A stretch of DNA of 64,000 bases from the NCBI GenBank assembly GCA_041661795.1, contig JBAZTS010000002.1, forward strand, positions 36,263-100,262. The letters run 5' to 3'. The translations under genes and the position numbers were made by a program. Each line of letters opens with the position of its first letter. Position 1 is the stretch's first letter. Of the stretch, positions 6,044-62,734 are shown piece by piece. The notes beneath the pieces were generated by a model that was not told where the DNA came from, made no database searches, and worked only from the letters and a program-made list of their open reading frames with translations. This DNA is from Minisyncoccota bacterium. Its GTDB lineage: Bacteria; Patescibacteriota; Minisyncoccia; UBA6257; JAGOQP01.

Positions 6044-6769
6044 ATGTCTAAATTGGTGGTTTTAAATTGGAAGATGAATTTGCCCGATCTGCCGTCTTGG
6101 AGTGAAGCTTTGAAATTTAAAGGGAATAATAGAATTGTAGTTTGTCCTTCTTTCACTCATATAAATAAGCTAAGGAATTTATTAAAAGGAAAGGGGATAT
6201 ATATTGGGGCCCAAAACGTTTCTTATAAAGAAAATGGAGCTTTGACTGGAGAGGTGTCGGTTGAGATGTTAAAAGATGTCGGCGCTTCATATGCAATTAT
6301 AGGACATTCTGAAAGAAGATATGTTTTTGGAGAAACCGATGAAATTATAGCTAAGAAAGCAAAAGTTGTTCTTGAAGGCAGAATTACTCCTATTCTTTGT
6401 GTGGGAGAAACAAAGAAAATGACTAGAGAAAAATCCTGGAATTTTATCCGCTCTCAACTTCAAAAAGACTTATCTCTTACCCCTTACCCCTTACCCCTTA
6501 CCACTAGTTTAGTTGTGGCTTACGAGCCGGTCTGGTCTATTGGGGGAAATAAAAATATTGATGCGTCACATTCGGCTCATCTAATCGACAGAATAAGAGA
6601 GTTTCTATATACTAACTACAAGATGCGAGCCACCATCTTATACGGCGGAAGTGTTAATAGTAAAAATATTAAATCGCTTTTGTCTGTTGGTGAAATTGAC
6701 GGATTTTTGGTCGGGTCCGCCAGTTTAAAAAAAGAAGAAGTTAAAAAATTATTAAAATTAATAAATTAA
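6044..6769 (+). CDS. tpiA: triosephosphate isomerase, with an in-frame heptamer-repeat insertion
   Basis: …AYEPVWSIGGNK…, …YGGSVN… and IGHSERR motifs; the LTPYPLPLTTS segment is encoded by (TTACCCC)n at 6478-6505. Confidence 0.9.
   Translation: MSKLVVLNWKMNLPDLPSWSEALKFKGNNRIVVCPSFTHINKLRNLLKGKGIYIGAQNVSYKENGALTGEVSVEMLKDVGASYAIIGHSERRYVFGETDEIIAKKAKVVLEGRITPILCVGETKKMTREKSWNFIRSQLQKDLSLTPYPLPLTTSLVVAYEPVWSIGGNKNIDASHSAHLIDRIREFLYTNYKMRATILYGGSVNSKNIKSLLSVGEIDGFLVGSASLKKEEVKKLLKLIN
6478..6505 (+). repeat. (TTACCCC)x3 plus TTACCAC in-frame within tpiA
   Basis: Direct reading. Confidence 0.85.
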
Positions 6770-10787: not shown

Positions 10788-13350
10788 AATTTTTTCTCCT
10801 CTTGGTTCTTACCGTAAGAGAGTGGTTAAGATAAATGATTTTGAAAAAGAATTGTCTTTGCTCTCTGATGAGGAAATTAAGAATAAATCTCTTAAATTAA
10901 AAGAGGGTTTTTCCGGTGATCAAGAATATCTGGAAAACAACCTTGAATTGGCTTTTGCTTTAGTTAGAGAATCCTCCAAAAGAAATTTAAAGCAAAGACA
11001 TTTTGATGTCCAGCTTATTGGAGGTTTGGCAATGTCAGATGGAAAAATAGTTGAAATGGCAACGGGAGAAGGAAAAACTTTATCAGCCACACTGCCGGCT
11101 TATCTTTATGGAATCAGTGGAAAAGGAGTTCATGTTATTACTGTCAATGATTATCTTGCCAAAAGAGACGCTGTCTGGATGGGACAGATATATGATTTTT
11201 TAGGATTAACAGTTAGTTGTTTAGTTCATGACGGGGCGTATGTGTATGATTCTAAATATACAAATGAAATTCAAAGTGAAGAAGTGGCAGATGAAAAAAG
11301 AGATGTTGTTGGGGGTTTTAAAGTAATTCAAGAGTTTTTGAAACCAATATCAAGAAGAGAGGCCTATTTGTCAGATATAGTTTATGGAACTAACCACGAG
11401 TTTGGTTTTGATTATCTTAGAGATAATTTGGCTTACAATTCTAAAAATCAGGTCCAACGAGAGCATTATTTTGCTATTATTGACGAGGTAGACAGTATTT
11501 TAATAGATGAAGCCAGAACTCCTTTGATTATTTCAGCTCCAGACGTTGAAGCGGCTCAATACTACAAGGTTTTTGCCAAAGTAGTTAGTTCTTTGGAGAT
11601 TGAAAAGGATTATACAGTTGAAGAGAAAGATAGATCGGCCGTTATGACAGATGATGGTATTGCCAAGGTGGAAAAAATGCTGAATATAGAAAATATTTAT
11701 GATGCTCAATCTGCTTCCCTAGTTCACTATCTTGAAGAATCTTTAAAAGCCAAAGCTCTTTTTAGAAGAGACAGGCATTATGTTGTTAAATCCACTCCTT
11801 CTGGCGAGGGAGAAATTATTATAGTTGATGAATTTACCGGTCGCTTAATGCATGGAAGAAGGTATTCTGGGGGACTTCACCAGGCCATTGAAGCCAAAGA
11901 GGGGGTGAGAATTCAAGAGGAATCAAAAACGTTTGCTCAAATAACTATACAAAATTATTTTCGTCTTTATGAAAAAATAAGCGGAATGACGGGAACCGCC
12001 AAAACCAGCGCTGAAGAATTTAGGAAGGTTTACGGATTGGAAGTTGCTGTTATTCCATCCAATAAGCCCAGAGTAAGAAACGATAAATCGGATTTGATTT
12101 TCAAAACAAAAGAATCCAAATATCAGGCCATCGTGGGTGCTATAAAAGAAATGGTTGAAAAAGGCCAACCGGTTTTAGTTGGCACAACATCAATAGATGA
12201 GAACGAACTTTTATCCTCATATTTTTCCAATGCGGGAATAAAACATGAAGTGCTTAATGCCAAAAACCACGAAAGAGAGGGAGAAATAATTGCTCAGGCC
12301 GGAAGGTCGGAAGGCGTAACTTTAGCCACCAACATGGCTGGAAGAGGAGTGGATATAGTTTTAGGAGGAAATCCTCAAGATGTTTTGGATGCGCAAAAAG
12401 TTAAAGATGCCGGAGGACTTTTTGTTTTAGGAACTCAAAGAAATGAAGCCAGAAGAGTTGATAATCAGTTAAGAGGGCGCTCGGGAAGACAGGGGGATCC
12501 CGGAGAAACACAATTTTTTCTTTCTTTGGAGGATGATATGTTAAGAATTTTTGGAGGAGACAGAATCAAGTCAATGATGAATAGAATGAATATGCCCGAT
12601 GACGTTCCCATAGAATCATCTTTAATCGGAAAAGTAGTGGACGAAGCCCAAAAGAAAGTTGAAGGAATGAATTTTGATATCAGAAAACACCTGTTGGAAT
12701 ATGACGATGTTTTAAACAAACAAAGAAAAGCTGTTTATAGGAAAAGACAAAATATCTTAGAAAGGTTAGAAAAAGGGGAGTTGGAAGATGTTTTAAAAGA
12801 ATTGATTTTAGACGTCCTTAAATTTATTTTTTCAAATCCAACCAAGGATTTGGATTCTATAAAACAATGGTTTGAAGAAGTCGGGTTGGTTAGTAAAGAA
12901 GAAAAAGACAGTTTTAACGTTGAACAAGTGGAAAGCTCAATAAATCAGGGAGTGTTGGATGAATTTATTCTATCTAAAATAAATAACGTCTGTCAGGACC
13001 CGCAAGTTGGATTAAAAATACTTGGGTCCTTGGACGGGTTTTGGACTAATCACTTGGAAAATCTGGAGGCCTTATTGGAATCGGTAAGGATGAGAGCTTA
13101 TGGTCAAAAGGACCCACTGGTTGAATATAAAAGAGAAGGCCATCAGCTTTTTAAGGATTTAATAATTAACGCTCAAGTTTGGGTTGTCTCTAATGTTTTT
13201 AAGGAAATTCAAATCAATCCCAACAAAAATGTTTCTCAGAAATCTTTAGATACGATATACGATATACGAAATACGGATTCCAAATTAGGCCGTAATGACC
13301 CTTGTTATTGCGGAAGCGGTAAAAAATATAAAAAGTGCCATGGAAAATAA
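10765..13350 (+). CDS. secA: preprotein translocase ATPase SecA
   Basis: 861 aa; DEAD-like motor motifs (MATGEGKTL, …DEVDSILIDEARTPLIIS…); C-terminal zinc finger CYCGSGKKYKKCHG. Confidence 0.95.
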   Translation: MMTSILDKIFSPLGSYRKRVVKINDFEKELSLLSDEEIKNKSLKLKEGFSGDQEYLENNLELAFALVRESSKRNLKQRHFDVQLIGGLAMSDGKIVEMATGEGKTLSATLPAYLYGISGKGVHVITVNDYLAKRDAVWMGQIYDFLGLTVSCLVHDGAYVYDSKYTNEIQSEEVADEKRDVVGGFKVIQEFLKPISRREAYLSDIVYGTNHEFGFDYLRDNLAYNSKNQVQREHYFAIIDEVDSILIDEARTPLIISAPDVEAAQYYKVFAKVVSSLEIEKDYTVEEKDRSAVMTDDGIAKVEKMLNIENIYDAQSASLVHYLEESLKAKALFRRDRHYVVKSTPSGEGEIIIVDEFTGRLMHGRRYSGGLHQAIEAKEGVRIQEESKTFAQITIQNYFRLYEKISGMTGTAKTSAEEFRKVYGLEVAVIPSNKPRVRNDKSDLIFKTKESKYQAIVGAIKEMVEKGQPVLVGTTSIDENELLSSYFSNAGIKHEVLNAKNHEREGEIIAQAGRSEGVTLATNMAGRGVDIVLGGNPQDVLDAQKVKDAGGLFVLGTQRNEARRVDNQLRGRSGRQGDPGETQFFLSLEDDMLRIFGGDRIKSMMNRMNMPDDVPIESSLIGKVVDEAQKKVEGMNFDIRKHLLEYDDVLNKQRKAVYRKRQNILERLEKGELEDVLKELILDVLKFIFSNPTKDLDSIKQWFEEVGLVSKEEKDSFNVEQVESSINQGVLDEFILSKINNVCQDPQVGLKILGSLDGFWTNHLENLEALLESVRMRAYGQKDPLVEYKREGHQLFKDLIINAQVWVVSNVFKEIQINPNKNVSQKSLDTIYDIRNTDSKLGRNDPCYCGSGKKYKKCHGK

Positions 13351-16012: not shown

Positions 16013-18334
16013 ATGTTAAGCGACAATATACGCAATTTTTGTATTATAGCCCACATAGATCACGGCAAATCTACATTGGCTGATAGGTTGCTTGAAATTA
16101 CAGGAACTATAGATAAGAGGAAGATGAAGAACCAATATCTTGATCAATTGGAATTGGAAAGAGAAAGAGGGATAACTATCAAAATGGCTCCTGTCCGCAT
16201 GCTCTATGCGCTGACTAACGCCGACTCTACGCCGACTGACGCAGACAATAAGAAATTAGATAATGCGAGTAGTCAATTATTGTATGAAGATTTAACCTAT
16301 AAAATAAGAGGAGTGTTGTTTGGCGTAAAGAAAAAAATAGGACTTGGTCATAAAGAAGTTATTTACCAAAAGGCCATAGAAGAAGAATTGACAAAAGAGA
16401 ACATACCTTTTGAAAAAGAAAAAATAATTAATATAGAACTTGATAATAAAAGTCTTGGCGTATACAGACCAGATTTTGTTATTGATAATAAAATTATATT
16501 AGAGATAAAATCTTTGCCTTTTATTGGAGATGTTGAGAAAAGGCAAGTTTGGACATATCTTAAGGGATCAGAATATAAATTGGCTTTATTAGTCAATTTC
16601 AATTCTAGAGATATTGATATTAAAAGAGTTGTGTATGATACAGCCAGAGAAATTCAGCGTGAGTCAGCGTTTAGTCAGCGTAAGTCGGCGCAGGTTGAGC
16701 AGTATGTGCTCAACCTGATAGACACTCCCGGGCATCCGGATTTTGGTTATGAAGTTTCCAGAGCTTTGGAAGCGGTTGAGGGGGCAATTTTGTTGGTTGA
16801 TGGAATGCAAGGAATACAAGCACAAACGTTATCTAATTTTTATGCTGCCAAAAAAGCCGGACTTACAATTATTGGCGCGGTTAACAAAGTGGATTTAAAT
16901 ATTCCTGACATAGATAAAGTTGTAATGGAAACAGCGGAGCTAATTGGTTGTGGGCCAGAACAAATTCATAAAATATCAGGAAGAACAGGAGAGGGAGTTC
17001 AACAGCTTTTGGGAGCAGTTATTCTTAGAATCCTACCTCCAAAAGCTGTAATTCCCAATTTCCAATTCCCAATTTCCAATTTTGGAAGGGCATTAATATT
17101 TGATTCTTTTTATGACGACCACAAAGGAATTATAGCCAGTGTCAGGGTATTTAATGGAGAATTTAATCAGTTTGATGATGTGGTTTTGGTGGCTGCTAAA
17201 GAAAAATTTAAAACAAAAGAAGTCGGATATTTTTCTCCGACCCTAAATCCTTCAAAAAGAATTTTAGAGGGAGAGATAGGTTATTTGGTTACCGGGATAA
17301 GAGACCCGTATAAAATAAAAATCGGTGACACGGTAATAGGTCACAAATCACAAGTCGCGCATCACGAATCGTATGCTTTGCCCGGATACAAAGAACCAAA
17401 GCCGGTGGTGTTTGTTTCTTTCTATCCAGACAATCCGGATGAATATGATGATTTAAAAAAATCTTTGGAAAGATTAAAGCTTAACGACTCTTCTTTTGCT
17501 TTTGAGCCGGATTTAAATGAAGTGTTGGGCAGGGGATTTAAAGGAGGATTTTTGGGAAAGCTTCATTTTGAAATAATTTCTCAGCGTCTTGAAAGAGAGT
17601 TTGGAATAAAAACAATCACATCTTTTCCTTCGGTCAGTTATAAAATAAAAACTTCTTCCAAACACTTAGCTCATCTAAAATTGGACGAAGATGGATTTTT
17701 CATAGCGTATAATCCCAAAGATATTCCTGAAGAATTTGAAAAGATATTAGAACCGATGATAAAAGTTGAAATTGTTTCATCACAAAAAATATTGGGAACA
17801 GTTTTGGGACTTAAAGATGCTTTTCGTTGGGAATACATAGAGACCCAACAATTGGGAGAAAAAGTTATTATTAAAACCAGAATGCCCTTGGCTGAGCTTA
17901 TCTCGGATTTTGACGACCAGTTAAAATCGGTTTCAGGTGGATTTGCTTCTTTTAGTTATGAAGAAGACGGCTATCAACAGGGCGATTTAATTAGGATGGA
18001 TATTTTAGTGGCAGACGAAATAGTTCCTGGGCTTTCTAGAATTCTTCCCAAAAAAGACATAGAATATCCGGCCAGGAAAATGGTTGTTCGCTTAAAGGAA
18101 GTATTGCCTCATCAGCAATTTACCCAAGCTATTCAAGCCAAAGTCGGAGGGAGAATTATAGCCAGAGAAACTATTGCGGCTTTAAGAAAAGATGTGACCG
18201 GATATCTTTATGGAGGAGACAGAACAAGAAAAATGAAACTTTGGAAAAAACAGCAAAGAGGCAAAAAGAAACTTCTTTCTATGGCCAAAGTGACCATATC
18301 TCCAGAAAACTTCAAGAAACTTCTTTCAAAATAA
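16013..18334 (+). CDS. lepA: elongation factor 4 (LepA) carrying a ~165-aa in-frame insertion (GxxExxY/PDDEXK_3 domain) in the G domain
   Basis: N-terminal NFCIIAHIDHGKSTLADRLL, …LIDTPGHPDFGYEVSRAL…, NKVDL, and the LepA C-terminal domain; the insertion lies between the ITIK (G2) and DTPGH (G3) motifs. Confidence 0.9.
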   Translation: MLSDNIRNFCIIAHIDHGKSTLADRLLEITGTIDKRKMKNQYLDQLELERERGITIKMAPVRMLYALTNADSTPTDADNKKLDNASSQLLYEDLTYKIRGVLFGVKKKIGLGHKEVIYQKAIEEELTKENIPFEKEKIINIELDNKSLGVYRPDFVIDNKIILEIKSLPFIGDVEKRQVWTYLKGSEYKLALLVNFNSRDIDIKRVVYDTAREIQRESAFSQRKSAQVEQYVLNLIDTPGHPDFGYEVSRALEAVEGAILLVDGMQGIQAQTLSNFYAAKKAGLTIIGAVNKVDLNIPDIDKVVMETAELIGCGPEQIHKISGRTGEGVQQLLGAVILRILPPKAVIPNFQFPISNFGRALIFDSFYDDHKGIIASVRVFNGEFNQFDDVVLVAAKEKFKTKEVGYFSPTLNPSKRILEGEIGYLVTGIRDPYKIKIGDTVIGHKSQVAHHESYALPGYKEPKPVVFVSFYPDNPDEYDDLKKSLERLKLNDSSFAFEPDLNEVLGRGFKGGFLGKLHFEIISQRLEREFGIKTITSFPSVSYKIKTSSKHLAHLKLDEDGFFIAYNPKDIPEEFEKILEPMIKVEIVSSQKILGTVLGLKDAFRWEYIETQQLGEKVIIKTRMPLAELISDFDDQLKSVSGGFASFSYEEDGYQQGDLIRMDILVADEIVPGLSRILPKKDIEYPARKMVVRLKEVLPHQQFTQAIQAKVGGRIIARETIAALRKDVTGYLYGGDRTRKMKLWKKQQRGKKKLLSMAKVTISPENFKKLLSK
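16209..16693 (+). mobile_element. in-frame inserted element: GC-rich terminal inverted repeats (tandem decamers CGCYGACTNA / inverted AGTCRGCG) flanking an AT-rich GxxExxY (PDDEXK_3) nuclease-domain cargo
   Basis: Left TIR 16209-16244 (cgctgactaa cgccgactcta cgccgactgac); right TIR 16661-16693 (gagtcagcgt ttagtcagcgt aagtcggcg); cargo YKIRGVLFGV…GLGHKEVIYQKAIEEEL…YRPDFVIDNKIILEIKS…LALLVNFNS…IKRVV matches the GxxExxY family. Confidence 0.7.
17050..17084 (+). repeat. heptamer array AATTCCC-AATTTCC-AATTCCC-AATTTCC-AATTTTG in-frame within lepA
   Basis: Direct reading; encodes IPNFQFPISNF. Confidence 0.85.
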
Positions 18335-19374: not shown

Positions 19375-19385
19375 TATATAATTTG

Positions 19386-19456
19386 AGCGGGATACGGGAA
19401 TCGAACCCGCGCTTCAACCTTGGGAAGGTCGTGTATTACCACTGTACTAATCCCGC
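19386..19456 (-). tRNA. tRNA-Gly (anticodon CCC)
   Basis: Reverse complement reads GCGGGAU…CGACC-UUCCCAA-GGUUG…GGGUUCGAUUCCC…AUCCCGC-U: 7-bp acceptor stem, T-loop UUCGAUU, anticodon loop UUCCCAA. Confidence 0.85.
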
Positions 19457-19477: not shown

Positions 19478-20668
19478 ATGAAATATCTTAGAAATGTCAA
19501 AATAGAAAAGATAAGAAACAAAACCTGCGTTTTAAGGTTGGGTTTGGATATAAAGGATGGTGAGTTAAAAAATTCGTTGAGAGTTATAAAATCTATCCCG
19601 ACACTCAAATTTCTATTAAAAAACGACTGCAAAGTAGTGATAATTTCACATCGAGGTAGACCTCAAGAGGGGAAAGAGGAAAGTGAAAAGAGGAAAGTGA
19701 AAAGAGAAGAAACTTTAAGATCATTTGTGGAGATTTTTGAAAAACTACTAAAAACAAAGATTAGTTTTGATGACTCTTTTGATTTTAAAAAGATGAGTGA
19801 AAAGATTAAAAAACTTCACTCAAAATCTATAGTTATTGTTGAAAATATAAGATTAGTAAAAGGAGAAAAGGATGATAACGATAAGCTAGGGAGAGAATTG
19901 GCTTCTTTGGGAAATTTTTATGTGAATGATGATTTTTCTACCAGTCACAGAAAAAACGCTTCTTTATGTGCGATAACAAAATTCACACCTTCTTATGTTG
20001 GCCTGCAGTTTGAAGAAGAAATAAAGAATTTAGACAAAGTTCTTAAAAATCAAAGGAAGCCAGTTGTTCTGATTGTAGGGGGAGTTAAATTGTCGGACAA
20101 AGTTGGCGTAATAAAAAATTTCTTAAACAAGGCAGATTATGTTTTGACCGGTGGGGGAGTTTCCAATACTTTCTTTGCTGCTAAAGAAATTCCAGTTGGT
20201 GATTCGTTAATTGATAAAGAAATGATGAAAATGGCAAAAACCTTACTTAAATCAAAAAAAATCATTTTACCCCAAGACGTTAGGATAAAAGGAAAATCTA
20301 TATTGGATATAGGGGATAAAACCATTGAAGAATATAAAAAAATAATAGAAAAAGCAGGGACTATTATTTGGGGTGGACCGTTAGGATATTTTGAGGACAA
20401 AAAATTTGCCAAAGGAACATTTGAAATAGCCAGAGCGATTTTAAAATCAAAAGCTTTTTGTGTTATTGGCGGCGGAGAAACTACAGTCGCCTTTCTTAAG
20501 GCAACTCGCGGACTTACACGGACTTCACGCAGAACTACGCGGAAAACAGTCAGCGTCAGTCAGCGTTCAGTCGGCGTTGGTCAGCGCTTGTTTCTGTCTA
20601 CTGGTGGAGGGGCAATGTTGGAATATCTAGCAGGTAAAAAATTACCGGCTTTGGAAGCGCTTAAATAA
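19478..20668 (+). CDS. pgk: phosphoglycerate kinase with two in-frame repeat insertions
   Basis: …KVVIISHRGRPQ…, …YVNDDFSTSHR…, …GGGETTVA…STGGGAMLEYLAGK. Extra segments KEESEKRKVKREE (14-mer tandem repeat) and TRGLTRTSRRTTRKTVSVSQRSVGVGQRL (GC-rich TIR element). Confidence 0.9.
   Translation: MKYLRNVKIEKIRNKTCVLRLGLDIKDGELKNSLRVIKSIPTLKFLLKNDCKVVIISHRGRPQEGKEESEKRKVKREETLRSFVEIFEKLLKTKISFDDSFDFKKMSEKIKKLHSKSIVIVENIRLVKGEKDDNDKLGRELASLGNFYVNDDFSTSHRKNASLCAITKFTPSYVGLQFEEEIKNLDKVLKNQRKPVVLIVGGVKLSDKVGVIKNFLNKADYVLTGGGVSNTFFAAKEIPVGDSLIDKEMMKMAKTLLKSKKIILPQDVRIKGKSILDIGDKTIEEYKKIIEKAGTIIWGGPLGYFEDKKFAKGTFEIARAILKSKAFCVIGGGETTVAFLKATRGLTRTSRRTTRKTVSVSQRSVGVGQRLFLSTGGGAMLEYLAGKKLPALEALK
19668..19713 (+). 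repeat. purine-rich 14-mer (GAGGAAAGTGAAAA)x2 with degenerate flanks, 7-nt periodic, in-frame within pgk
   Basis: Direct reading; encodes KEESEKRKVKREE. Confidence 0.85.
20507..20588 (+). mobile_element. cargo-less copy of the GC-rich decamer-TIR element, in-frame within pgk
   Basis: cgcggactta cacggacttca cgcagaacta cgcggaaaa | cagtcagcgt cagtcagcgt tcagtcggcgt tggtcagcg: the same direct-then-inverted subrepeat architecture as the lepA element; 50-60% GC against a ~35% background. Confidence 0.6.
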
Positions 20669-22071: not shown

Positions 22072-22418
22072 AAAGATAAGTGAGTGATTGCCCTGACATT
22101 TGTTGGGGAGGAAAGTCCGGACTCCCATCTCCGACGTAACGTCGGAGTAAACGTATTCGCTAACAGCGAACTATCGCAAGATAAGAGGTGCGAACAGAGA
22201 CGAGTCCTAATGGAAACATTAGGGGTGAAACGGTCCCGACGCCTATTTCGGGTTAGGGACTCCGACATCCGCAAGGATCGTCGGAGCTAAATCCTTGCGG
22301 GGTGCAAGACCGTATCCGCCCAGGGCGGGTGAGTCGCTTGAACCTGAGAGTAATTGAAGGTCCAGACAAATAATCACTATCCCGACGTAACGTCGGGACA
22401 CAGAATCCGGCTTATAGC
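22072..22418 (+). ncRNA. rnpB: RNase P RNA (bacterial type A)
   Basis: P4 consensus GGAGGAAAGUCCGGACUCC at 22109-22127; ACAGAAUCCGGCUUAUAG (ACAGARxxGGCUUA) near the 3' end; P1 pairing AGAUAAG/CUUAUCU; GC-rich relative to its surroundings. Confidence 0.8.
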
Positions 22419-22500
22419 TTATCTAAACATATCAAGAATCTCTCCTTAACGGGGGGATTTTTGATTGATTTATTAAGGGTTTTTTGATACTTTTAACAAG

Positions 22501-27781: not shown

Positions 27782-27852
27782 TGGGAGATCGTCTAATGGT
27801 AGGACAGCGGCCTTTGAAGCCGTGAATCGGGGTTCGAATCCCTGTCTCCCAG
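27782..27852 (+). tRNA. tRNA-Gln (anticodon UUG)
   Basis: UGGGAGA…GCGGC-CUUUGAA-GCCGU…CGGGGUUCGAAUCCCUG…UCUCCCA-G: cloverleaf with the T-loop UUCGAAU. Confidence 0.85.
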
Positions 27853-27856
27853 CAAT

Positions 27857-38040: not shown

Positions 38041-38168
38041 TATAATATTTTGTGTAATTTTTATATCTATCATTTCTTGCTACAGCAACCAGATTTATAT
38101 ATAACCGGTACTTAATATGTAATTTTTTGTATATAGTATTTGGTATACGGTATACGATATTCGGTATT

Positions 38169-39272
38169 CTATTTTAGATTCTCTATTATAGCTATCTCAA
38201 AGGGCACCAAGGGGAAAGGATTGTATTTCATTTGGGAGTAGGCGGTGATGAGCGCTTTTATAAGTTTTATCTGCTCGTCCGTATCTATTTTAGCCGAATG
38301 TTTTTTTATTTCTTTTATTTGGCTTTCGGCCAATTCCTTTTCAAATATCTTTTCCAGTTCCGGATTAAGATGTAAAGAAAGAACCCTTCTTAAATATTCT
38401 GTCAGATCTTTGTTAAATTGAAAAAGATTGTATCCCTGACTGTTTATTTCGTATAAAAATTCCAGCGACTTTTGTAAGTCCTTTTTTATGACCAAATCGG
38501 CCATTTTTATTGTTTTTAGAAAATCAACTTTTCCCAAGATGCTTTCCACGTATTCAACGGTAATATTCTTGCCCTTCATGGAAACAATCTGGTCAAAAAG
38601 AGATTCGGCATCTCTTAAACTTCCTTCAGCTAAAAAGGCAATCATTTCCAAAGCTTCTTTTTCGTATTCTACTTTTTCTTCTTTGGCGATAAATGAAAGT
38701 TTTTTTATAATCTCCTGTAGTGTCAGCTTTCTAAAATGAAATCTCTGGGTTCGGGAAACAATAGTGGGAGGGAGCTTGTCGTATTCGGTGGTGGCTAATA
38801 TAAAAACGGCATGGGCTGGCGGTTCTTCTAAAGTTTTTAAAAGAGCGTTAAATGCCTGTGGAGTGAGCATGTGAACTTCATCTATGATAAAGATTTTGTA
38901 TTTAAGATAAGAGGGGAGTGTTTTTATGTTTTCTTTGAGATTTCTTATTTCATCTATTCCTCGGTTGGAAGCGGCGTCAATTTCAACGACATCCAAAGCT
39001 CTGCCTTCTTCAACTTGTAAACAGGCGTGACATTCTCCACAGGGCTCTCCTTGCTTGGCAAAGTTTTCGTCCTCTTGTCTTTTCTGGCAGTTAATTATTT
39101 TGGAAAAGATTCTGGCGATAGTTGTTTTGCCGGTTCCTCTTGAACCGTAGAAAAGATAGGCATGAGAAATTTTACCTTCCTTAACTGAATTTTGAAGTAT
39201 GGTAACCGTATTTTCCTGACCGTAAATATCAGCAAGTTTTTTTGGTCGGTATTTTCTATAAATAGCTAACAT
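38169..39272 (-). CDS. dnaX: DNA polymerase III subunit gamma/tau (short form, 367 aa)
   Basis: KYRPKKLADIYGQENTVTIL…GSRGTGKTT (Walker A), Zn module CGECHAC, DEVHML, SRTQRF sensor. Confidence 0.85.
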   Translation of the reverse strand: MLAIYRKYRPKKLADIYGQENTVTILQNSVKEGKISHAYLFYGSRGTGKTTIARIFSKIINCQKRQEDENFAKQGEPCGECHACLQVEEGRALDVVEIDAASNRGIDEIRNLKENIKTLPSYLKYKIFIIDEVHMLTPQAFNALLKTLEEPPAHAVFILATTEYDKLPPTIVSRTQRFHFRKLTLQEIIKKLSFIAKEEKVEYEKEALEMIAFLAEGSLRDAESLFDQIVSMKGKNITVEYVESILGKVDFLKTIKMADLVIKKDLQKSLEFLYEINSQGYNLFQFNKDLTEYLRRVLSLHLNPELEKIFEKELAESQIKEIKKHSAKIDTDEQIKLIKALITAYSQMKYNPFPLVPFEIAIIENLK

Positions 39273-39278
39273 ATCAAT

Positions 39279-39315
<37 letters not shown>

Positions 39316-39324
39316 GCTATGAAA

Positions 39325-39366
39325 TAAAAAAAGCCCGCCGGTGTCTTCCGAGGAAGTCCTGGCGGG
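39325..39366 (-). terminator. intrinsic terminator of the minus-strand GC-rich transcript
   Basis: Minus-strand RNA …CCCGCCAGGACUUCC-UCGG-GGAAGACACCGGCGGG followed by UUUUUUU. Confidence 0.65.
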
Positions 39367-39922
39367 GTGGAACAGGTGGTGCGACCTTAGCTCACTCGGT
39401 GCTGTCGAGTTCGCTCGCCCGATATACTCTCCGGGTGATACGAGAGCTCGAATCTGCCGAGACGTGACGCGTGGTCACTTTTTGCTAAGGTTTTTTGGGG
39501 TGCTGCTCCTCTTCCTGTTCGGTACTTTCTAAGAACGGTTCCCACACCGTTCTCGCCGGCGAGCTTAGCTCGCGCAGGGTAGAGGCGCCTCCTAAAGGAG
39601 GCAAAACATGAGTACAAATTCGGAATTGGATTTTTGTGAGTTTCCGGACTCACTATCTCGTTTGGTGCACCTCCCGAGAAGTCCTTTTCCTTCCACTTAT
39701 TATTGGGCCAGTTTGAGATCAGCGGTGGACACTCAAACTGTTTGCGTGCTTTCACCGAGCTTGCCGGATTTACTCGGATCTTTGGTGAGATGGCGCAACC
39801 CCACAGTTTTGACCTCCCTCAGCTGCGCGCGCAACTGAGTTGTCAGCTCACCTAGTGACAGAGGCCCCCTTTTTGACCGTTTTTTCTTCTTGGTCCGGAA
39901 GGGTTTCCGTGCTACATTTTTA
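39335..39922 (-). ncRNA. unclassified GC-rich structured transcript (~590 nt) upstream of and co-directional with dnaX; candidate SRP RNA, tmRNA or other ncRNA
   Basis: Consensus promoter (TTGACA-N16-TATAAT at 39930-39957, minus strand) and intrinsic terminator; 55-60% GC; many hairpins (CCUCCuuuaGGAGG, GCGAGCuaaGCUCGC, GAGAACGGUgugggaACCGUUCUU); no convincing long ORF. Confidence 0.4.
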
Positions 39923-51133: not shown

Positions 51134-51178
51134 TTATAATAATCATATACCGAATACAGTATACCGTATACCGCAAAA

Positions 51179-61193: not shown

Positions 61194-61411
61194 AGATAAT
61201 AATCATCGTAAAACCAAATAAAAAAGAAAATAAGGTTGTGAAAATAGGAGAGAACATTTTTGAAATTTATACGAATCAACCGGCTAAAGAAAATAAAGCC
61301 AATTTGGATATTATTCAACAAATGTCCAAGTATTTTAAAGTATCAAAATCAAAGGTTTCTATATCTTCCGGATTAAAGTCAAAGAAGAAAATTTTGGAAA
61401 TAAATATATAA
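61190..61411 (+). CDS. DUF167 (YggU-like) family protein
   Basis: 73 aa; …KANLDIIQQMSKYFKVSKSKVSISSGLKSKKKILEI matches the DUF167 C-terminal consensus (AN…L…VxKsxVxIxxGxxSRxK). Confidence 0.65.
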   Translation: MKIIIIVKPNKKENKVVKIGENIFEIYTNQPAKENKANLDIIQQMSKYFKVSKSKVSISSGLKSKKKILEINI

Positions 61412-61443
61412 AAAAAGGGGGCTCCCGGTGTTGCTGGGAGCCC
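61410..61443 (-). terminator. intrinsic terminator of the minus-strand GC-rich transcript (GGGCUCCCagcaacaccGGGAGCCC followed by UUUUUUU)
   Basis: Seen on the reverse complement; it also caps the convergent DUF167 gene. Confidence 0.6.
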
Positions 61444-61940
61444 AAAGTGCGGTAAGGAGGTCAATGTACGATGCGGTGCCTGCCGTGCGTCGCTTCGCTC
61501 GTTCGGGTCTTGGTGGTTCAGATCAGGGCCAGTCGTGCCCGAAAACTTAACTTTCTGGCCCATTGCTTCTCGGCACGCATGGTTTCTCCTTGCATGGATT
61601 TTTGGTCCACGCAGCTCTGCCCTCAGCGCTTGACGGTGGCCTCGTCGTTGGTGCGGTGGTTGTTCTGACGCTGTTGCATGGGATTTCTCCTCGCGTGAAC
61701 GTCGTCGGTTGTTGGTGCTAGCTATGGCTCAAGTCAAGCTTTCTTTTCGGTGAGCTTGACGAGCAGTGCTAGCGCCTGTTCTGGGTTTCGTTTTTTATCG
61801 GTATAACCTTCACAAGGTTATACCAGGGTTTCCTTCCTGATTGGCGGTCAAGAAGGTTGTTTAATCATCCAGCATTGTCCTAACTAACGGAACGGCGGTT
61901 CGACGTCCACGTGCATCGCTTTCCTCCTTATGTAGTTTAC
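61443..61940 (-). ncRNA. GC-rich (~57% GC) transcript with only mini-ORFs (10, 18 and 20 codons, each with a strong SD); function unknown
   Basis: Promoter TTGACT-N17-TATCCT (minus strand, 61948-61976); first mini-ORF UAAGGAGGAAAGCG-AUG (MHVDVEPPFR); ends at the terminator at 61410-61443. Confidence 0.35.
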
Positions 61941-62693: not shown

Positions 62694-62699
62694 AAGATT

Positions 62700-62734
62700 A
62701 GTATATAGTATTTAGTAGTTAGTATATAGTATAA
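62700..62734. repeat. heptamer tandem array AGTATAT-AGTATTT-AGTAGTT-AGTATAT-AGTATAA
   Basis: Direct reading; in the divergent SDR/rmuC promoter region. Confidence 0.75.

What the first reader, a model, noticed from the sequence alone, without database searches (positions are those of the whole stretch)
16209..16693. lepA carries an in-frame, TIR-flanked element with a GxxExxY (PDDEXK_3) nuclease-domain cargo
The LepA frame stays open across a ~165-aa insertion between the conserved ITIK and DTPGH G-domain motifs. The inserted core (YKIRGVLFGV…GLGHKEVIYQKAIEEEL…YRPDFVIDNKIILEIKS…LALLVNFNS…IKRVV) aligns motif for motif with the GxxExxY / PDDEXK_3 family, which is best known from 23S rRNA intervening sequences. 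The cargo has native AT-rich composition, but it is bounded by GC-rich imperfect terminal inverted repeats built from three tandem roughly 10-nt subrepeats (left CGCTGACTAA-CGCCGACTCTA-CGCCGACTGAC; right GAGTCAGCGT-TTAGTCAGCGT-AAGTCGGCG). This is the architecture of a small mobile element, yet it sits in-frame in an essential-class translation GTPase and lacks intein boundary residues. The flanks translate into hydrophilic S/T/R/D/Q-rich linkers, as with Rickettsia palindromic elements.
Basis: partly seen in the sequence, partly recalled or inferred. Interest (0 to 1): 0.88.

Follow-up and report, generated by a model that had tools for sequence, protein, structure and literature searches.

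The report
Nuclease gene living in-frame inside lepA
A small selfish DNA element that encodes a Cas4-like nuclease sits in-frame inside the translation factor gene lepA of a Paceibacterota (CPR) bacterium; related copies sit in many other housekeeping genes of that group, and I found no published description of this kind of element.

Summary
lepA (16013-18334) stays open across a 495-nt insert (16208-16702) that replaces the tip of the beta2-beta3 hairpin of the G domain. The insert carries a full-length GxxExxY/PDDEXK_3 nuclease domain with its catalytic residues intact. Two GC-rich arms flank it, each made of 3-4 tandem 10-11-nt subrepeats in inverted orientation.

This is not special to lepA. 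The same arms-plus-nuclease unit lies in-frame in RecG, GatB, SecA, RtcB, LeuRS, a second LepA site and glycosyltransferases of Patescibacteria. Free-standing intergenic copies occur in several phyla.

In LepA, nuclease similarity does not track LepA similarity (Spearman 0.02), so the site has been invaded repeatedly. Arms-only derivatives are common, and one sits in pgk in this window (20503-20590).

In the window this is 16691-16701 against 16707-16717.

There are no intein motifs, no link to rRNA, and no sign of RNA-level pairing. The most likely reading is a selfish DNA element that is translated as an inserted domain with disordered linkers. The insertion mechanism is inferred, and fold-back or hairpin intermediates are my best guess. 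I found no prior description in the literature I could search.

The parts
16013..18334 (+). lepA (elongation factor 4) ORF, 773 aa, host gene, open across the insert
   Evidence: TIGR01393 scores 645.5 bits in two stretches. In the AF2 model all LepA domains are folded.
16208..16702 (+). The whole inserted element, 495 nt or 165 codons, between Tyr65 and Tyr231 of LepA. It replaces the beta2-beta3 turn.
   Evidence: Filled and empty sites in relatives are aligned.
16196..16210 (.). Left junction hairpin, weak here: CGCAT gctct ATGCG. The 3' half is an inverted copy of the host sequence.
   Evidence: In relatives the stem reaches 10-17 bp (L017, L019, L020, L081).
16209..16246 (+). Left arm: CGCTGACT, CGCCGACT, CGCCGACT and CGCAGAC at a period of 10-11 nt. 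It encodes the disordered linker ALTNADSTPTDAD.
   Evidence: TRF period 10, 3.7 copies. pLDDT is 31-40 for aa 68-87.
16277..16639 (+). Cargo: GxxExxY / PDDEXK_3 nuclease domain with a Cas4-like PD-(D/E)XK fold. It has the motifs GHKEVIY, PDF and LEIK.
16652..16690 (+). Right arm: ATTCAGCG, AGTCAGCG, AGTCAGCG and AGTCGGCG, the reverse complement of the left-arm unit. It encodes ...QRESAFSQRKSA.
   Evidence: pLDDT is 31-39 for aa 210-228.
16691..16717 (.). Right junction palindrome: CAGGTTGAGCA gtatg TGCTCAACCTG. The 5' half (QVE) is an inverted copy of the host codons for LNL that follow.
   Evidence: pair I11, 11 nt, 100% complementary. One search gives z = -5.2.
19478..20668 (+). pgk ORF, the second host gene in the window
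   Evidence: (PF00162).
20503..20590 (+). Cargo-less (arms-only) element in-frame in pgk. The left arm, 20507-20545, reads CGCGGACT, CACGGACT, CGCAGAAC, CGCGGAAA. The right arm, 20548-20586, reads AGTCAGCG twice, then AGTCGGCG and GGTCAGCG. It encodes TRGLTRTSRRTTRKTVSVSQRSVGVGQR.
   Evidence: There are 38 residues between GGGET and STGGGA against a baseline of 15-19. The fold is -19.7 kcal/mol, z = -2.1.

Best explanation
The insert is one copy of a family of selfish DNA elements. Each element is about 0.5 kb. It consists of one ORF for a small Cas4/RecB-like PD-(D/E)XK nuclease (the GxxExxY family), bracketed by two arms. Each arm is an array of 3-6 tandem 10-11-bp subrepeats, and the two arrays are in inverted orientation.

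Shown:
- The arms and the nuclease travel together. They occur between genes in several phyla, and in-frame inside many housekeeping genes of Patescibacteria.
- The tip of the LepA beta2-beta3 hairpin is a hot spot that unrelated lineages of the element have invaded again and again.
- Embedded copies always keep both arms and the cargo open in the host frame, and they keep the nuclease active site.
- Cargo-less arms-only copies, as in pgk, share the same junction structure.
- Each junction carries an inverted copy of 5-18 nt of the local host flank.

Inferred:
- The element moves as DNA.
- In gene-dense CPR genomes, copies persist only where they are harmless: in a surface loop, in frame and without a stop codon.
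- LepA is therefore made with the nuclease domain hanging from the G domain on two disordered, arm-encoded linkers, and that is how the nuclease gets expressed.
- Insertion goes through a break in the target. Both target ends fold back or become hairpin-capped and are copied, which creates the inverted flank copies, before the element is joined in.
- The phased subrepeats are binding sites for the nuclease on one face of the DNA helix.
For: Domain identity and fold. The catalytic E, D, E and K are 116/116 in embedded copies.

In the whole-protein model, LepA and the nuclease are both folded and the arm-encoded segments have pLDDT 31-40.

The same unit lies in-frame in RecG, LepA site 2, GatB (two sites), RtcB, SecA and LeuRS, and is fused to RecJ, RibF and pilins. 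A census of 70 embedded representatives hits 47 Pfam families.

Free-standing copies with arms occur in Omnitrophota, Endomicrobiales, Verrucomicrobiota and Bacteroidota.

Arm statistics: the left arm and the reverse complement of the right arm share 5.85 7-mers within an element, against 1.30 between elements and 1.10 in direct orientation. Autocorrelation peaks at lag 10.

Mobility: LepA backbone identity and cargo identity are uncorrelated (Spearman 0.02, 2850 pairs). BLASTP confirms this: L020 versus L053 is 46.5% in the backbone and 81.8% in the cargo, while P0161 versus P0206 is 81% and 52%. A GatB insert is 82% identical to a LepA insert. LepAs that are 92% identical over 330 residues differ in whether they carry an insert.

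Reading frame: both arms are open in the cargo frame in 33/33 embedded copies. The other frames are open in 9-42%. In free copies the right arm is open in the cargo frame in 0/15.

Junction palindromes: a score of 9 or more in 22/62 junction windows against 2.9% of 649 control windows. The inverted copies match their own host flank better than the flanks of other loci, with permutation p at or below 1e-4 on both sides. Arms-only copies have them too.

Arms-only copies with the window's own subrepeat occur in at least 118 metagenome stretches, many of them in-frame in aminoacyl-tRNA synthetases, PolX, TsaD, PGK and LepA.
Against: No transposition or cleavage has been observed, so the nuclease's substrate is unknown.

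The arms are only about 78% complementary. In arms-only copies the left unit (CGCAGAC) and the right unit (GTCAGCG) differ systematically at the central base. The arms therefore do not behave as a simple strict TIR.

Only about a third of junctions have strong inverted flank copies, and the window's left junction has just 5 bp.

A hydrolytic PD-(D/E)XK nuclease cannot make hairpins by itself, so the fold-back step needs host functions that I did not identify.

Translation of the insert is inferred from the open frame and has not been observed.

The LepA sample is biased towards insert-bearing proteins because the query contained the insert.
Confidence: 0.7

Rival explanations
1. The arms and junction palindromes are not transposon ends. 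They grow in place by template switching or fold-back replication at a fragile loop-coding site. The nuclease ORF then spreads between such palindromic sites by recombination or gene conversion through the similar arm arrays, not by transposition of a defined element.
For: In AT-rich arms-only inserts at the LepA site (L087), the units (AAATTCTAAAT, AAATTCAAAAT) resemble the inverted copy of the adjacent host flank (AAATTCAGAAT). The inverted flank copies must be made locally. The same loops of LepA and PGK hold inserts of many unit types and lengths.
Against: The GC-rich units share one consensus across unrelated host genes, intergenic sites and phyla. Unit type follows cargo relatedness; for example L081 in GatB and L020 in LepA both use CGCAGAA and have 82% identical cargo. 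The arms therefore travel with the cargo.
Confidence: 0.12
2. The insert is an intervening sequence that is removed before the mature LepA is made. Removal could be by RNA cleavage in the two junction hairpins followed by RtcB-type ligation (as in HAC1/XBP1 or archaeal bulge-helix-bulge splicing), by protein splicing, or by ribosomal bypass from Tyr codon to Tyr codon.
Against: The reading frame is kept open through both arms and into the host gene in 33/33 embedded copies, whereas free copies end in a stop. Removal at the RNA level would not require this. Mismatches between the arms show no excess of G-U-compatible changes on the sense strand (77 against 88, p = 0.44). There is no Hint or intein domain, no conserved Cys/Ser/Thr or His-Asn at the boundaries, and the +1 residue is Tyr. 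Removing everything between the two Tyr codons would leave a hairpin shorter than in any orthologue without an insert.
Confidence: 0.07
3. The nuclease domain is an old, vertically inherited and domesticated insertion that gives LepA of Paceibacteria a new function, for instance a nuclease delivered to the ribosome. It is not a mobile element.
For: The insert is widespread at exactly the same LepA site, always in frame, with intact catalytic residues.
Against: Cargo and LepA phylogenies are uncoupled. The window's cargo is closer to inserts in RecG and at LepA site 2 than to most site-1 inserts. The same unit occurs in dozens of unrelated proteins and between genes. Close LepA relatives carry no insert or arms only.
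Confidence: 0.06
4. It is an assembly or gene-calling artefact, such as a chimeric contig or a merged ORF.
For: Several orthologous contigs end, or have N gaps, just after the right arm. This shows that the repeats disturb assembly.
Against: The identical 773-aa protein is encoded on contigs from two assembly sources. More than 60 full-length orthologues from many studies have the same structure.
Confidence: 0.01

Closest known systems
Rickettsia palindromic elements (RPEs)
   Same: Both are short palindromic repeats inserted in-frame into many unrelated housekeeping genes. Both are translated as extra peptide segments compatible with the protein fold (review PMC10969869). The arms-only copies in pgk, aminoacyl-tRNA synthetases, TsaD and others behave in just this way.
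   Different: RPEs have no known enzyme partner and occur in Rickettsia. Here an autonomous form carries a nuclease ORF. The arms are arrays of 10-11-nt subrepeats, the hosts are Patescibacteria, and the junctions carry inverted copies of host sequence. I did not test sequence relatedness to RPE families.
Homing endonuclease genes in inteins or group I introns
   Same: Both are nuclease genes lodged at a conserved site of a conserved, essential-class gene. In both, the same site is occupied repeatedly by lineages whose phylogeny disagrees with the host gene, and empty and degenerate sites exist.
   Different: There is no splicing vehicle: no Hint domain, no boundary nucleophiles and no intron structure. 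The nuclease belongs to the GxxExxY PD-(D/E)XK family. LepA backbones only 46% identical share 82% identical cargo, so transfer cannot rest on flank homology. The same element family also uses many other genes and intergenic sites.
REPtrons (a RAYT transposase gene flanked by inverted REP sequences, with many cargo-less REP/BIME copies)
   Same: A single small enzyme gene is bracketed by inverted short repeats, and cargo-less repeat copies far outnumber it in the same genomes.
   Different: RAYTs are Y1 (HUH) transposases and REPs are extragenic hairpins. Here the enzyme is a PD-(D/E)XK nuclease, the repeats are phased arrays, and copies sit inside coding sequence. This comparison rests on my own knowledge.
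Cas4 / RecB-family nucleases
   Different: At 121 residues it is much smaller. It has no CRISPR context in the window and is not in PADLOC. The absence of an Fe-S cluster is read directly from the sequence, which has no Cys cluster.

Membership tests
GxxExxY / PDDEXK_3 (TIGR04256, PF13366) | Profile score above the curated cut-off over the full length of the model | tested here: met
   PF13366 scores 101-103 bits (cut-off 22), covering profile positions 2-117 of 117. TIGR04256 scores 105.6-108.5 bits (cut-off 35), covering positions 1-116 of 116.
GxxExxY / PDDEXK_3 (TIGR04256, PF13366) | GxxExxY motif and a PD-(D/E)XK catalytic triad on a restriction-endonuclease-like fold | tested here: met
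LepA / EF4 (TIGR01393) | Equivalog profile above the cut-off, with G-domain motifs and the LepA C-terminal domain | tested here: met
   645.5 bits against 533.9. LepA_C has E = 8e-32. AHIDHGKST, DTPGH and NKVD are present.
Intein | Hint-domain splicing blocks: Cys/Ser/Thr as the first residue, His-Asn as the last, and Cys/Ser/Thr at +1 | tested here: not met
   No Hint or intein family at E <= 0.01. In orthologues the first inserted residue is Ala, or His, Arg or Lys. The last is Gln or Glu, and +1 is Tyr.
Rickettsia palindromic elements | A short palindromic repeat with no enzyme gene, inserted in-frame in unrelated genes | tested here: inconclusive
   The pgk copy and the metagenomic arms-only copies meet this feature. 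The lepA copy does not, because it carries a nuclease ORF. Sequence relatedness to RPE families was not tested.
Classical TIR transposon / MITE | Terminal inverted repeats, a direct target-site duplication, and a DDE-type or serine transposase in the autonomous form | tested here: not met
   Inverted arms are present. The junctions, however, carry inverted and not direct copies of the flanks. The flanking TAT codons are native to sites without an insert. The only ORF is a PD-(D/E)XK nuclease.
Homing endonuclease gene | A nuclease that cleaves the empty allele, so that repair copies the element in | not testable with these tools
   Only indirect support: recurrent occupation of one site, with cargo phylogeny uncoupled from the host.
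23S rRNA intervening sequence ORF | Located inside an rRNA gene, within a helix extension | tested here: not met
   Rfam finds no rRNA in the window or next to 20 free-standing copies.
Anti-phage defence nuclease | A match to a known defence-system component | tested here: not met
   PADLOC: 0 families.

The most novel reading that the evidence does not exclude
GxxExxY genes with their phased inverted arms form a large, previously unrecognised class of mobile DNA. The class inserts through hairpin or fold-back intermediates and leaves inverted target-site duplications, a signature I know from no other prokaryotic element. In CPR bacteria it occupies the niche of inteins without any splicing. 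It is expressed as a live nuclease domain grafted onto essential proteins such as LepA, RecG, GatB, SecA and aminoacyl-tRNA synthetases. Its cargo-less derivatives account for many of the unexplained disordered insertions in CPR housekeeping proteins.
Probability: 0.5. Interest if true: 0.93.

Novelty: categorically new. Interest (0 to 1): 0.88.

Why it matters
If this is right, a protein family with thousands of members and no assigned function turns out to be the engine of a mobile element with an unusual way of life and an unusual insertion signature.

It would show that bacteria tolerate whole enzyme domains dropped into surface loops of essential proteins. That amounts to a natural map of sites that permit domain insertion.

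It would explain the length variation of CPR housekeeping proteins and some of their annotation problems. Several of these LepAs are named 'GxxExxY protein' in NCBI, and this one is deposited from an internal Met. It would also explain assembly breaks at the repeats.

The phased 10-11-bp repeats and the nuclease form a simple two-part system that can be tested in vitro. The inverted flank duplications point to a DNA-joining pathway not yet described in bacteria.

Tried and rejected
- RNA-level pairing of the arms. Mismatches between the left arm and the reverse complement of the right arm show no excess of G-U-compatible changes on the sense strand (77 against 88). I therefore treat the symmetry as a DNA property.
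- Intein. There are no motifs and no Hint domain.
- rRNA intervening-sequence context. There is no rRNA in the window or near 20 free copies.
- Phage carriage. tblastn against 50,697 phage records found nothing. PHROGs gave only weak endonuclease hits.
- Defence system. PADLOC found nothing.
- Vertical inheritance in LepA. Rejected.
- A direct target-site duplication. None was found. The flanking TAT codons are native.
- A second GxxExxY copy in the window. None was found in a six-frame HMM search.
- A shared target motif among the insertion sites. I saw none by eye in the loops of the junction palindromes.
- Literature. Searches for GxxExxY, PDDEXK_3, PF13366, TIGR04256, and for Patescibacteria or CPR combined with in-frame and palindromic terms found no description of this phenomenon.
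Full report
**What is in the window**

The ORF at 16013-18334 (773 aa) is elongation factor 4 (LepA). TIGR01393 scores 645.5 bits against a cut-off of 533.9, but the match is split into two stretches. Between the two lies a complete GxxExxY / PDDEXK_3 domain. PF13366 scores 101 bits and covers profile positions 2-117 of 117; TIGR04256 scores 105.6 bits.

Reading the DNA, the insert is 495 nt, or 165 codons, at 16208-16702. It lies between the Tyr codon that ends strand beta2 (16205-16207) and the Tyr codon that starts beta3 (16703-16705).

In orthologues without an insert, 15-20 residues separate GITIK from IDTPGH. The window has 178.

The insert is bounded by a left arm (16209-16246: CGCTGACT, CGCCGACT, CGCCGACT, CGCAGAC) and a right arm (16652-16690: ATTCAGCG, AGTCAGCG, AGTCAGCG, AGTCGGCG). 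Three results show the arms are real:
- The 8-mer occurs 10 times in the window against 0.78 expected.
- TRF reports a period of 10.
- With the cargo replaced by a short loop, the arms fold as DNA at -38.9 kcal/mol, z = -7.9.

The arms are 55-64% GC, the cargo is 27%, and the rest of lepA is 37%.

The identical protein is encoded on contigs from two assembly sources. NCBI names the organism Candidatus Paceibacterota.

**The protein**

AlphaFold models give a confident nuclease core, with pLDDT above 90. In the full-length model all LepA domains are folded and strands beta2 (59-66) and beta3 (230-237) are intact. The nuclease forms a separate domain. The two arm-encoded segments (68-87 and 210-228) have pLDDT 31-40, so they are probably flexible linkers.

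The catalytic Glu of GxxE, the Asp of PDF and the Glu and Lys of ExK are present in the window. They are invariant in 116 of 116 embedded copies.

There is no Hint or intein domain. The boundary residues vary and are never the intein nucleophiles.

**The insert is not specific to lepA**

The best homologues of the insert are other Patescibacteria LepAs with an insert at the same site. They also include copies in-frame in RecG and at the N-terminus of a pilin.

A scan of one genome per species returned 80 loci. Stop-to-stop ORFs and Pfam show the domain embedded in-frame in these genes:
- LepA site 1
- LepA site 2, between domains II and III
- RecG, between the DEAD and Helicase_C domains
- GatB, at two or more sites
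- RtcB
- SecA
- LeuRS

It is also fused to the C-terminus of RecJ and of riboflavin kinase.

An exhaustive profile search found 5810 cluster representatives (clusters at 50% identity). About half of the best 150 are embedded in proteins of 240-907 aa. A Pfam census of 70 of these hits 47 families, among them GT1/GT4 and GT2 glycosyltransferases, transketolase, Wzy, asparagine synthase and pilins.

Free-standing copies occur in Omnitrophota, Endomicrobiales, Verrucomicrobiota, Saganbacteria and Bacteroidota.

**The arms are a property of the whole family**

Every copy examined, embedded or free, has arrays of 7-8-nt cores at a 10-11-nt period on both sides. The core differs between elements: CGCGGAT, CGCAGAA, CACGGAC, CTCGAAT, CACGAAT, CACAAAT or CGCYGACT. 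The right side carries the reverse complement of the left.
- Within an element, the left arm and the reverse complement of the right arm share 5.85 7-mers. Between elements the figure is 1.30, and in direct orientation 1.10.
- Autocorrelation peaks at lag 10.
- Unit type follows cargo relatedness. The GatB copy L081 and the LepA copy L020 both use CGCAGAA and their cargo is 82% identical.

Arms and cargo are therefore one unit.

Complementarity is imperfect, about 78%. Mismatches show no bias towards G-U-compatible changes on the sense strand (77 against 88, p = 0.44). I therefore see no evidence that an RNA stem is under selection. The periodicity of one helical turn fits phased protein-binding sites on DNA; this is an inference.

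**Evidence for mobility**

Four lines of evidence support it.

1. Among 76 full-length LepAs with the insert, backbone identity and cargo identity are uncorrelated (Spearman 0.02 over 2850 pairs). BLASTP confirms the extremes. L020 versus L053 is 46.5% in the backbone and 81.8% in the cargo. P0161 versus P0206 is 81% in the backbone and 52% in the cargo, with different arm types.

2. The window's cargo is closest to LepA site-2 inserts (74%) and to a RecG insert (71%). It is no closer than 70% to any other site-1 insert.

3. Of 119 LepAs that could be classified, 63 carry cargo, 28 carry arms only and 28 have no insert. The sample is biased towards cargo because the query contained it. Pairs that are 92% identical over 330 residues differ in status. 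DNA alignments show the insert replacing the six-codon turn between the two Tyr codons.

4. The window's closest LepA relatives (P0123, P0124) have an arms-only remnant at site 1 and a cargo copy at site 2.

**Selection on the reading frame**

In 33 embedded copies both arms are open in the cargo frame (100%). The other two frames are open in only 9-42%. In 15 free-standing copies the right arm is never open in the cargo frame, and the ORF ends with its own stop.

Embedded copies are thus the survivors of a filter for uninterrupted translation through the element into the rest of the host gene. This argues for translation of the insert and against its removal at the RNA level.

**Arms-only derivatives**

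pgk in the window (19478-20668) carries a cargo-less insert at about 20503-20590. Its right arm is nearly the same as the right arm in lepA.

The PGK baseline between GGGET and STGGGA is 15-19 residues. The window has 38. About a third of roughly 100 Paceibacteria orthologues have 22-43 residues, with peptides of the same kind.

None of these ORFs contains cargo. Many are in-frame inserts in the following genes:
- PolX-like proteins
- PheT
- Val/IleRS
- LeuRS
- TsaD
- an RluA-type synthase
- cysteine desulfurase
- a second PGK site
- LepA site 2

**Inverted copies of the host flank at the junctions**

In the window, 16691-16701 (CAGGTTGAGCA, encoding QVE) is the exact reverse complement of 16707-16717 (TGCTCAACCTG, the host LNL codons) (z = -5.2). 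The left junction has only 5 bp here.

In relatives both sides can be long:
- L017: 12 bp on the left and 15 bp on the right.
- L020: 17 bp with one mismatch on the left and 18 bp on the right.
- L024 (LeuRS): 17 bp with one mismatch on the left and 13 bp on the right.
- L081 (GatB): 16 bp with one mismatch on the left.
- L008 (RecG): 8 bp on the left and 10 bp on the right.

Junction windows reach a hairpin score of 9 or more in 22 of 62 cases, against 2.9% of 649 control windows from the same genes.

The inverted copies match the synonymous codon choices of their own host gene better than those of other loci, with permutation p at or below 1e-4 on each side. They are therefore made from, or kept matched to, the local flank.

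They also explain the conserved linker peptides. HSDR, HPHR and HFDR are the reverse complements of the codons for VRM or IKM. QVE and SEY are the reverse complements of the LNL or ILN codons.

Arms-only copies have them too.

**How it most likely works**

Shown: the anatomy, the distribution, the mobility, the frame filter and the junction signature.

Inferred:
- The element is selfish DNA.
- The nuclease is made as part of the host protein.
- Insertion follows a break in the target. Both ends of the break fold back, or become hairpin-capped, and are copied for 5-18 nt before the element is joined in. This is the only simple way I can see to obtain an inverted copy of each flank at each junction.
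- The phased units are where the nuclease binds.

A Cas4/RecB-like enzyme could supply 5' resection. The polymerase and ligase steps would be host functions.

I put about 0.7 on the overall reading (mobile DNA, translated in place) and about 0.35 on the fold-back step.

**Comparison with known systems**

In behaviour the arms-only copies resemble Rickettsia palindromic elements. In its niche the cargo copy resembles a homing endonuclease gene in an intein. In architecture it resembles a REPtron. It meets the defining features of none of these (see the membership table).

The literature I could search contains three papers that mention GxxExxY and two that mention PF13366. None addresses this phenomenon, and the 2012 PD-(D/E)XK survey lists the family's function as unknown.

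**Limits**

Nothing here shows activity, expression or an actual transposition event. Identity matrices stand in for trees. The taxon labels of some MAGs are unreliable. The junction signature is strong in only about a third of junctions.

Noticed in passing
window 20503-20590 (in pgk, 19478-20668): A cargo-less arms-only element lies in-frame in pgk. Its right arm is almost identical to the right arm in lepA. Its left arm uses different units (CGCGGACT, CACGGACT, CGCAGAAC), so the two arms are poorly complementary (z only -2.1).
   Followed up: yes
window 17050-17082 (in lepA, aa 346-357): A tandem heptamer AATTTCC, 4.7 copies, followed by a short palindrome TTCCAA tt TTGGAA. It is in-frame (IPNFQFPISNFG) in the variable linker between the G domain and domain II, where the model has pLDDT below 50. 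It may be another kind of repeat insertion.
   Followed up: partly
L087:295-560 (LepA P0133) compared with L088 (P0138): AT-rich arms-only inserts occupy the same LepA site in relatives. Their units (AAATTCTAAAT, AAATTCAAAAT) resemble the inverted copy of the adjacent host flank (AAATTCAGAAT). This hints that some palindromic inserts may grow in place from the flank.
   Followed up: partly
metagenome loci L104, L105, L146, L164, L203 and others: In arms-only copies that carry the AGTCAGCG right unit, the left unit is mostly CGCAGAC and not CGCTGAC. The result is a systematic central A-A mismatch. One possible reason is avoidance of TGA in the coding frame.
   Followed up: partly
P0121, P0129, P0145, P0193, P0206, P0238: Public annotation is disturbed by the insert. 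The NCBI record for this very LepA starts at the internal Met63 (711 aa, MLYALTN...). Several orthologous LepAs are named 'GxxExxY protein'.
   Followed up: partly
P0001-P0004; L003 3546-3652; L027: Contigs of orthologous loci often end, or contain runs of N, in or just after the right arm. This suggests the repeats break assemblies.
   Followed up: partly
window 19671-19706 (in pgk): A tandem heptamer GGAAAGA, 5 copies (14-nt unit, 100% match), in-frame in pgk (EGKEESEKRKVKREE).
   Followed up: no
window 6476-6502, 13250-13275, 38125-38169, 39279-39311, 51146-51173, 62699-62733: Several perfect or near-perfect tandem heptamer arrays: CTTACCC, ATACGAT, GTATTCG/GGTATAC, AAGTATA, TATACCG and TAGTATA. 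The arrays near 38.1 kb and 51.1 kb are roughly reverse complements of each other, 13 kb apart.
   Followed up: no
window 39326-39869 and 61411-61932: GC-rich islands of 150-550 nt in a 36% GC genome. They have no Rfam match at gathering threshold and could be structured RNAs.
   Followed up: no
L184 449-477 and 5233-5261: A single 8.2-kb metagenome contig carries two arms-only inserts, one at LepA site 2 and one in PheT. This indicates a high density of these elements in some CPR genomes.
   Followed up: no
window 22072-22430, 19385-19456, 27782-27853: RNase P RNA (class A, 138.8 bits), tRNA-Gly(CCC) and tRNA-Gln(UUG). These are ordinary features.
   Followed up: no
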